Below are positions 52,960 to 54,011 of a stretch of 64,000 bases of DNA, piece by piece; position 1 is the first letter of the stretch, and the number at the start of each line of letters is the position of its first letter. The notes under the pieces were generated by a model. The model saw only the letters and a list, made by a program, of their open reading frames with translations, was not told the origin of the DNA and ran no database searches. The stretch is from Eledone cirrhosa (taxonomy: Eukaryota): the NCBI GenBank assembly GCA_964016885.1, contig OZ024742.1, positions 309,256,001 through 309,320,000 on the forward strand. The letters run 5' to 3'. The translations under genes were made by a program, and so were the position numbers.

Positions 52960-53043
52960 CATATATATTTATATATATATATATATATAAATGTAAGTAT
53001 GTATGTATCGTACATACATACATGTATACAGACGTACAGTAGC

Positions 53044-53081
<38 letters not shown>

Positions 53082-53244
53082 CATACATACATGCAGGTAC
53101 ACATACATATATGCACGCATCAGTTTAGCAGACGCTTATTATAGCGCTTGCTTTGTTCGTTTGTCAACAAAACTGAACAGCCTGAATTTATGCCATACGG
53201 TGTTAAGGCAACCACGTCACCTTTTTGTTCAACACTGACACAGG

Positions 53245-53290
53245 AACGATGTACTAGTTTCAAGCTTGTTAGCTATCATCAGCACCGTTT
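53245..53290 (-). ncRNA. type-I minimal hammerhead ribozyme, unit 1
   Basis: aacggtg-CTGATGA-T-AGCT-aaca-AGCT-T-GAAA-CTA-GTA-catcgtt: 7-bp stem I, 4-bp stem II, palindromic ACTAGT stem III. Confidence 0.85.
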
Positions 53291-53527
53291 ACCCATCTGC
53301 CAGATAGTTGAACGTTCGAAAGTATATACGTTTCTTACGAAATTAACGGCTGAACAGCCTAATTTGCATATTGAGTGAGTTAAATCGGTCAGGCATACCG
53401 AAAACGATAAGTTGAAAAAAATGAAAACGAAAACGAAATTTCATTTCTCACTCTTAGTATGGCACTTACTTAAATGTAAGTATGTATGTATACGTACATA
53501 CATACATGTATACAGACGTACAGTAGC

Positions 53528-53589
<62 letters not shown>

Positions 53590-53747
53590 CATACATGCAG
53601 GTACACATACATATTGCACGCATCAGTTTAGCAGACGCTTATTATAGCGCTTGCTTTGTTCGTTTGTCAACAAACTGAACAGCCTGAATTTATGCCATAC
53701 GGTGTTAAGGCAACCACGTCACCTTTTTGTTCAAACACTGACACAGG

Positions 53748-53793
53748 AACGATGTACTAGTTTCAAGCTTGTTAGCTATCATCAGCACCGTTT
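53748..53793 (-). ncRNA. type-I minimal hammerhead ribozyme, unit 2
   Basis: Identical to unit 1, 503 bp away. Confidence 0.85.
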
Positions 53794-54011
53794 ACCCATC
53801 TGCCAGATAGTTGAACGTTCGAAAGTATATAGTTTCTTACGAAAATTAAACGACTGAACAGCCTAATTTGCATATTGAGTGAGTTAAATCGGTCAGGCAT
53901 ACCGAAAAACGATAAGTTGAAAAAAAATGAATATATGTATATATGTATATATATATATATGTATATATATGAATATATGTATATATGAATATATGAATAT
54001 ATGAATATATG

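What the first reader, a model, noticed from the sequence alone, without database searches (positions are those of the whole stretch)
52989..53930. Head-to-tail dimer of ~500-nt non-coding units, each with an intact hammerhead: candidate cephalopod non-LTR retrozyme / circRNA source
Seen: two near-identical units. Each has, on the minus strand, aacggtg-CUGAUGA-U-AGCU-aaca-AGCU-U-GAAA-CUA-GUA-caucguu with full core, 7-bp stem I and a self-complementary ACUAGU stem III. Cleavage sites are 503 nt apart. Established: minimal type-I hammerheads with palindromic stem III act as dimers, and tandem hammerhead repeats define non-LTR retrozymes that yield circular RNAs and are thought to be mobilised by Penelope-like elements. 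Inference: a read-through transcript would self-excise a ~503-nt monomer. Unusually, the monomer carries its own TA/TACA microsatellite, which could help it target or seed TA arrays.
Basis: partly seen in the sequence, partly recalled or inferred. Interest (0 to 1): 0.88.

Follow-up and report, generated by a model that had tools for sequence, protein, structure and literature searches.

The report
Ribozyme repeat pasted by Penelope enzymes
This is one two-unit copy of a 500-base, protein-free repeat with a hammerhead ribozyme motif that occurs about 10,000 times in this genome and lands in TA microsatellites in the pattern Penelope-type retrotransposons leave, so it is likely a hitch-hiking 'retrozyme' whose predicted self-cut, circular RNA would be copied round and round into new sites.

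Summary
Observation confirmed: two head-to-tail units on the minus strand, each with a full hammerhead core, cut sites 503 nt apart. It is a young high-copy family: 10,122 exact copies of the 40-nt ribozyme, no ORF, arrays of up to 19 units. Insertions show a Penelope-like (PLE) footprint: 5' truncation, TA-microsatellite flanks and two fixed 3' ends about 66 nt apart. In 37 of 39 classifiable back-to-back insertions one arm uses each end. Arrays run through intact cut sites; only 1 of 105 5' breakpoints lies near one. Units within an insertion differ by 0.4-0.65%, against 4.2% between insertions. Three age tiers keep the core invariant, with compensatory changes in all three stems, including the palindromic stem III needed for dimer cleavage. 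Best reading: a non-autonomous PLE retrozyme copied from one RNA by two reverse transcriptases. A circular template is likelier than an uncut multimer but unshown: no RNA data were found and the partner PLE was not identified. The internal TA tract is not the targeting device. The scan noted this family type before on other DNA, in this genome too. New member of a known kind.

The parts
52990..53930 (-). whole insertion: single arm of about 1.9 units, 5'-truncated, ending at family end A
53748..53792 (-). hammerhead copy 1 (stem I, core, stem II, palindromic stem III); predicted cut after 53,755
53245..53289 (-). hammerhead copy 2, identical; predicted cut after 53,252
53252..53754 (-). cut-to-cut monomer, 503 nt, 34% GC; predicted circle folds at -155.5 kcal/mol (z -7.3; -2.8 without the microsatellite part)
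52989..53000 (-). end A, the fixed 3' end (inferred reverse-transcription start), in the loop of a short hairpin, joined directly to (TA)n
53410..53472 (-). 'tail' between end A and end B; internal here, but the terminal extension of the second arm in other insertions
53047..53077 (.). internal TA tract of the 3' unit
53531..53587 (.). internal TA tract of the 5' unit
44107..52989 (.). flanking TA/TACA microsatellite (target side of end A)
53931..54583 (.). flanking TA microsatellite at the 5' truncation point

Best explanation
This is a non-coding, high-copy tandem hammerhead repeat with a Penelope-like insertion footprint, likely a non-autonomous retrozyme whose read-through RNA is predicted to be cut by paired ribozymes and re-ligated into a circle of about 500 nt, which a Penelope-type reverse transcriptase/endonuclease would then copy into TA microsatellites. 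Shown: family, copy number, two fixed 3' ends, A+B asymmetry of back-to-back arms, TA flanks, random 5' truncation, one haplotype per insertion, compensatory conservation of the ribozyme. Inferred: the endonuclease cuts both strands of (TA)n; each cut end primes cDNA at one of two internal sites about 66 nt apart on the same RNA; each enzyme runs through the intact cut site for one to many rounds; the two cDNAs are joined in the middle. The window copy is a single-arm product from end A. Odds: PLE-mobilised retrozyme about 0.9; circular rather than uncut linear template about 0.6 of that.
For: 10,122 exact motifs. TA within 16 nt of 54 of 61 end-A motif hits and 65 of 66 end-B hits. Of 53 two-arm insertions, 39 had both ends classed: 37 A+B, 2 A+A, 0 B+B (binomial p 1.4e-9 against 50%). 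This matches the two internal starts and both-strand priming shown for an Anolis PLE (PMC11167929). 105 placeable 5' breakpoints are uniform (KS p 0.51), 1 within 5 nt of the cut site. Divergence 0.40% within arms, 0.65% between arms, 4.2% between loci. 10 of 57 multi-unit insertions carry private fixed substitutions, 4 of 29 two-arm ones on both arms; 13 of 14 microsatellite segments in L110 have the same length. The window's two units share four substitutions absent from the reference unit. The core is invariant across three tiers about 74-76% alike, with five double changes that keep stems I-III, and a helix spanning 280 nt covaries. Full-length RT plus GIY-YIG elements in this genome end in (TA)n, and one family carries a ribozyme of the same build.
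Against: No RNA data. L109 has a 3-unit periodicity and a unit-specific variant shared by both arms; 8 variants are shared by only some units in 5 of 30 arrays with at least 3 units. That fits a multimeric template or later exchange. In the Anolis PLE, ribozyme cleavage was not needed and unprocessed RNA was the main substrate in vitro. The base of stem II is mismatched in all tiers, and the isolated motif prefers another fold by about 2 kcal/mol. Only 1 of 9 Xenopus dimers cleaved in vitro. No autonomous element with a homologous terminal repeat in 50 GIY-YIG loci of 10,595 candidates. 'Private' is judged against 82 insertions of an estimated 5,000.
Confidence: 0.55

Rival explanations
1. Same non-autonomous PLE parasite, but the template is an uncut linear multimer transcribed from an existing array; the ribozyme is slow and trims only some transcripts or acts at another step.
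For: Shared unit-specific variant and 3-unit periodicity across both arms of L109; 8 subset-shared variants. Ribozyme not needed in the Anolis assay. Conserved mismatch at the base of stem II.
Against: 5'-truncating copying of linear multimers can only shorten arrays, yet young arms of 13-15 near-identical units exist. Private variants fixed in all units and both arms need a one-unit bottleneck. 206 singleton variants against 8 subset-shared ones.
Confidence: 0.32
2. Copies insert as short PLE-type pieces and the arrays grow later by unequal crossing-over, the satellite-like local amplification proposed by Li et al. 2026.
For: Higher-order repeat in L109; neighbouring units sharing variants in L113. 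Model stated in bioRxiv 10.64898/2026.07.22.740005.
Against: Inverted arms share haplotype and microsatellite interruptions. Long arms are nearly invariant. Both arms are often multi-unit with intact A and B ends.
Confidence: 0.09
3. The unit is only the terminal repeat of an ORF-bearing PLE seen as truncated relics, or the dimer is an assembly duplication.
For: The two window units differ mostly by indels, as assembly errors would. Only 50 of 10,595 GIY-YIG candidates were inspected.
Against: Head-to-tail joints are the same throughout the family; no copy continued into an ORF in 76 young, 30 middle and 19 old loci. A contig of a DNA run bridges the unit-to-unit joint at end B (record 8; the run may be the assembly's own sample).
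Confidence: 0.04

Closest known systems
Animal non-LTR retrozymes (Cervera and de la Pena 2020, PMC7229834; Li, Clavereau and Pollet 2026, bioRxiv 10.64898/2026.07.22.740005)
   Same: Non-coding tandem repeats with a type I hammerhead in each unit, low GC, thousands of copies, predicted self-paired circle; PLE mobilisation and circle-to-tandem copying already proposed there.
   Different: Units of 410-540 nt exceed the 170-400 nt of the 2020 paper (within Li's 51-972). The parts read describe no fixed double 3' end, back-to-back arms or TA targeting, and Li et al. favour local amplification. Expression, cleavage and circles are shown there for other species, not here.
Endonuclease-bearing Penelope-like elements (Poseidon of Anolis, PMC11167929; structures in Craig et al. 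2021, PMC8557442)
   Same: 5' truncation, partial tandems, inverted 5'-truncated copy, tail at one end equal to the distance between two internal starts, AT-rich target, hammerhead with palindromic helix III.
   Different: No ORF; tail 45-66 nt rather than 30-40; arrays of up to 19 short units; no homologous autonomous element found.
Non-autonomous Chlamys PLEs such as MRC1 (Craig et al. 2021, passage)
   Same: Non-autonomous PLEs with multi-copy head-to-tail insertions.
   Different: That clade lacks canonical hammerheads, and those elements resemble their autonomous partners at the 3' end.

Membership tests
non-LTR retrozyme | type I hammerhead in at least two consecutive tandem units | tested here: met
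   Rfam models do not reach threshold
non-LTR retrozyme | short non-coding unit, GC under 50%, dispersed multimers | tested here: met
   503 nt, 34% GC; no long ORF in the unit; arrays on many contigs
non-LTR retrozyme | predicted highly self-paired circle | tested here: met
   z -4.9 to -16 for 9 monomers, -2.8 without the microsatellite; 4 of 82 pairs with double changes, but 61 of 500 shuffles reach that count
non-LTR retrozyme | self-cleavage in vitro | not testable with these tools
   only comparative support
non-LTR retrozyme | expressed as circular RNA | not testable with these tools
   no RNA holder listed
non-LTR retrozyme | no primer-binding site or polypurine tract; target-site duplication when present | not tested
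   duplications cannot be read inside (TA)n; no primer-site search was run
Penelope-like element (non-autonomous) | fixed 3' ends with a tail at one end | tested here: met
   37 of 39 A+B
Penelope-like element (non-autonomous) | 5' truncation, partial tandems, inverted 5'-truncated arm | tested here: met
   53 of 91 parsed insertions have two arms; breakpoints uniform
Penelope-like element (non-autonomous) | AT-rich or microsatellite target | tested here: met
Penelope-like element (non-autonomous) | homology to the terminal repeat of an autonomous family | tested here: inconclusive
   none in 50 GIY-YIG loci of 10,595 candidates
autonomous Penelope-like element | RT plus GIY-YIG ORF | tested here: not met
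   no copy continues into an ORF

The most novel reading that the evidence does not exclude
These arrays are the genomic footprint of twin-primed rolling-circle retrotransposition: a pair of Penelope-type enzymes primes from both ends of a cut TA microsatellite at two internal sites of one ribozyme-made RNA circle and copies it round repeatedly. The lineage has lived as a structured, protein-free RNA parasite through at least three tiers, recognised by a conserved 3' signal rather than by kinship with its carrier's terminal repeat.
Probability: 0.45. Interest if true: 0.75.

Novelty: new member of a known kind. Interest (0 to 1): 0.5.

Why it matters
How Penelope-like elements make more-than-unit, tandem and inverted insertions, and whether animal retrozyme circles are real transposition intermediates, are open questions; the circle model has been a proposal since 2014 (PMC4209133). 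A family with thousands of young insertions, two mapped start sites, a short conserved 3' signal and a ribozyme with natural compensatory variants gives a minimal substrate to test it. It also shows one route by which TA microsatellites are filled and multiplied in a 3-Gb genome. The kind of element is known.

Tried and rejected
Rfam: nothing at gathering score; only sub-threshold HH9 and TA-driven miRNA noise. RNA evidence: no RNA holder listed among 6 runs, which says nothing on expression. Matches in runs X4-X6 were 2-6 contigs each and are not used as evidence of distribution; cross-species age stays open. Autonomous partner: 30 best GIY-YIG loci plus 20 long-ORF ones; copies near ORFs (L161, L177, L178, L181) are nested neighbours; low-stringency searches with the unit and with four tail variants found no homologous terminal repeat. 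Following the older tiers and the cousin family also led to no ORF. Linear cut monomer as template: rejected, no pile-up of 5' ends at the cut site (arms whose 5' end fell in the microsatellite part or at a unit boundary could not be placed and were left out). Internal TA as primer site: rejected. Junction microhomology was only viewed, not counted. The supplement of PMC7229834 could not be read and bioRxiv supplements are closed; they, Repbase or Dfam may already list this family. Four searches found no paper on a cephalopod retrozyme or on retrozymes with PLE tails.

Full report
Observation. The window holds two head-to-tail units at 52,990-53,930 between TA arrays. They align at 93% with gaps. 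Each has on the minus strand a complete hammerhead core, a 7-bp stem I, a 4-bp stem II on a U-U mismatch and the palindrome ACUAGU; predicted cuts are 503 nt apart. Rfam gives no hit at threshold and only a weak HH9 match. The isolated motif folds 2 kcal/mol better in a non-ribozyme form, and a monomeric stem III is unfavourable, as expected for dimer-type ribozymes (PMC4209133).

Family. A DNA search of the own genome (3.0 Gb) returned 88 matches, most at 95-99%, from 40 of 1,850 candidates scored. The exact 40-nt ribozyme occurs 10,122 times, the reversed control 0 times. The first 100 hits fall into 49 loci by my grouping, which extrapolates to roughly 5,000 insertions. I fetched those 49 loci plus best matches to the window unit and parsed 76 loci into 91 insertions. 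No copy continues into an ORF. The longest have 13 units in one arm (L110) and 19 units in two arms (L109).

Insertion footprint. In the ribozyme sense, arms have variable 5' ends and one of two fixed 3' ends: end A, 262 nt downstream of the cut site, and end B about 66 nt further. TA follows 54 of 61 end-A motif hits (five misses look like wrong-strand or other-tier hits, two have CA first) and 65 of 66 end-B hits. 53 insertions are back-to-back arms with 3' ends pointing outward. 14 had an unclassed end; of the other 39, 37 pair A with B, 2 A with A, none B with B (p 1.4e-9). The window copy is a single arm ending at A. Craig et al. describe partial tandems, inverted truncated copies and a tail at one end as PLE hallmarks. 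Frangieh et al. show that a PLE protein cuts AT-rich DNA on both strands and starts reverse transcription at two internal sites whose distance is the tail. The genome has 10,595 GIY-YIG candidates, including long RT plus GIY-YIG ORFs with a CxxxxCxxC linker, which points to the Neptune or Nematis clades by the definition. These end in (TA)n; one family has a tail of about 60 nt, another a ribozyme with a U-U stem II base and a palindromic stem III. None of 50 loci has a terminal repeat homologous to this unit, so the partner is unnamed.

Template. 105 placeable 5' breakpoints are uniform along the unit and 1 lies within 5 nt of the cut site, so a linear cut monomer is not the template. Among 159 units, divergence is 0.40% within arms, 0.65% between arms and 4.2% between loci. 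Each array has its own microsatellite interruptions, shared by both arms. 10 of 57 multi-unit insertions have substitutions fixed in all covering units and absent from the other insertions; 4 of 29 two-arm ones have them on both arms. The window's units share four substitutions against a reference unit. This favours one template unit copied repeatedly, that is a circle. Against it: 8 variants shared by only some units in 5 of 30 longer arrays, and in L109 a 3-unit periodicity with a variant present in both arms; 'private' is judged on a small sample; and ribozyme cleavage was dispensable in the Anolis assay.

Selection on the RNA. Searches with diverged pieces found a middle tier (76% like the young one) and an old tier (74% like the middle one), both without ORF and with the same two ends. 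Column majorities of 126, 46 and 19 ribozymes keep the core unchanged. Between old and young, 10 of 15 differences form five double changes: two pairs in stem I, two in stem II, and CAUG versus CUAG, which keeps stem III self-complementary. That is good comparative evidence for a working dimeric ribozyme. The base of stem II is mismatched in all three tiers, suggesting a slow enzyme (inference). Across 20 monomers an 8-bp helix spanning 280 nt covaries, and end A lies in a hairpin loop; the sequences are related, and the count of double-changed pairs alone is not above shuffles (61 of 500).

The internal microsatellite. Insertion ends do not use it. The middle tier has only a short tract. A cousin family (1,205 exact ribozymes) has no tract, shares the end A and tail signal, and ends in TA in 14 of 20 loci, two of which are duplicates of one another, and in CA repeats in 3 (read by eye). 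Targeting therefore likely belongs to the endonuclease. The tract does collect other insertions (3 of 11 irregular ends).

Expression. No RNA run was listed. A DNA run holds the family at very high depth and bridges the unit joint; it may be the assembly's own sample.

Comparison with known systems. It meets the testable criteria of animal non-LTR retrozymes. PLE mobilisation and circle-to-tandem copying were proposed before, and Li et al. tie retrozymes to PLE terminal repeats but favour local amplification. What I read: Li 2026 parts 1-3 of 5; Frangieh 2024 parts 1-2 of 4; Cervera 2020 parts 2-4 of 6; Cervera 2014 parts 1-2 of 4; Craig 2021 twelve passages; no supplements. Earlier notes of this scan reached a similar reading on other DNA; I saw them after my own end analysis and do not count them as support.

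Verdict. Real feature, new member of a known kind. PLE-mobilised retrozyme about 0.9; full model with a circular template 0.55; interest 0.5.

Noticed in passing
window 26,918 (-), 63,537 (-): Two copies of another hammerhead family with a longer stem III, each ending about 90 nt later in TA; the same motif lies 1.3 kb downstream of RT plus GIY-YIG ORFs in L183, so likely PLE terminal repeats.
   Followed up: partly
window 46,190-46,560 (+), 47,047 (+), 38,759 (-): Three more hammerhead-like motifs; the first has an inverted partial arm and sits inside the large TA array.
   Followed up: no
L064:6100-9400: A second non-coding hammerhead family, 310-bp units with 8 ribozyme copies and an inverted arm, directly beside an array of this family.
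   Followed up: no
L237-L256: Cousin family with 1,205 exact ribozymes, a stem III that could fold as a monomer, no internal TA tract, and the same 3' signal.
   Followed up: partly
L222-L227, L231, L236, L256: A short SINE-like element (label from recall) is repeatedly inserted at the AT-rich hairpin loop of old-tier and cousin copies.
   Followed up: no
L105:4100-5050; L061:4930-5110: Other tandem or inverted elements inserted inside the unit's internal TA tract.
   Followed up: partly
window 30,975-37,355, 41,176-43,587, 58,400-60,300: Several LINE-type reverse transcriptase and endonuclease ORF fragments (recognised by recalled motifs), and an N gap within 41,644-41,976.
   Followed up: no
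L242 and L243: Two near-identical insertions with the same flanks 1.2 Mb apart on contig 1: segmental or assembly duplication.
   Followed up: no
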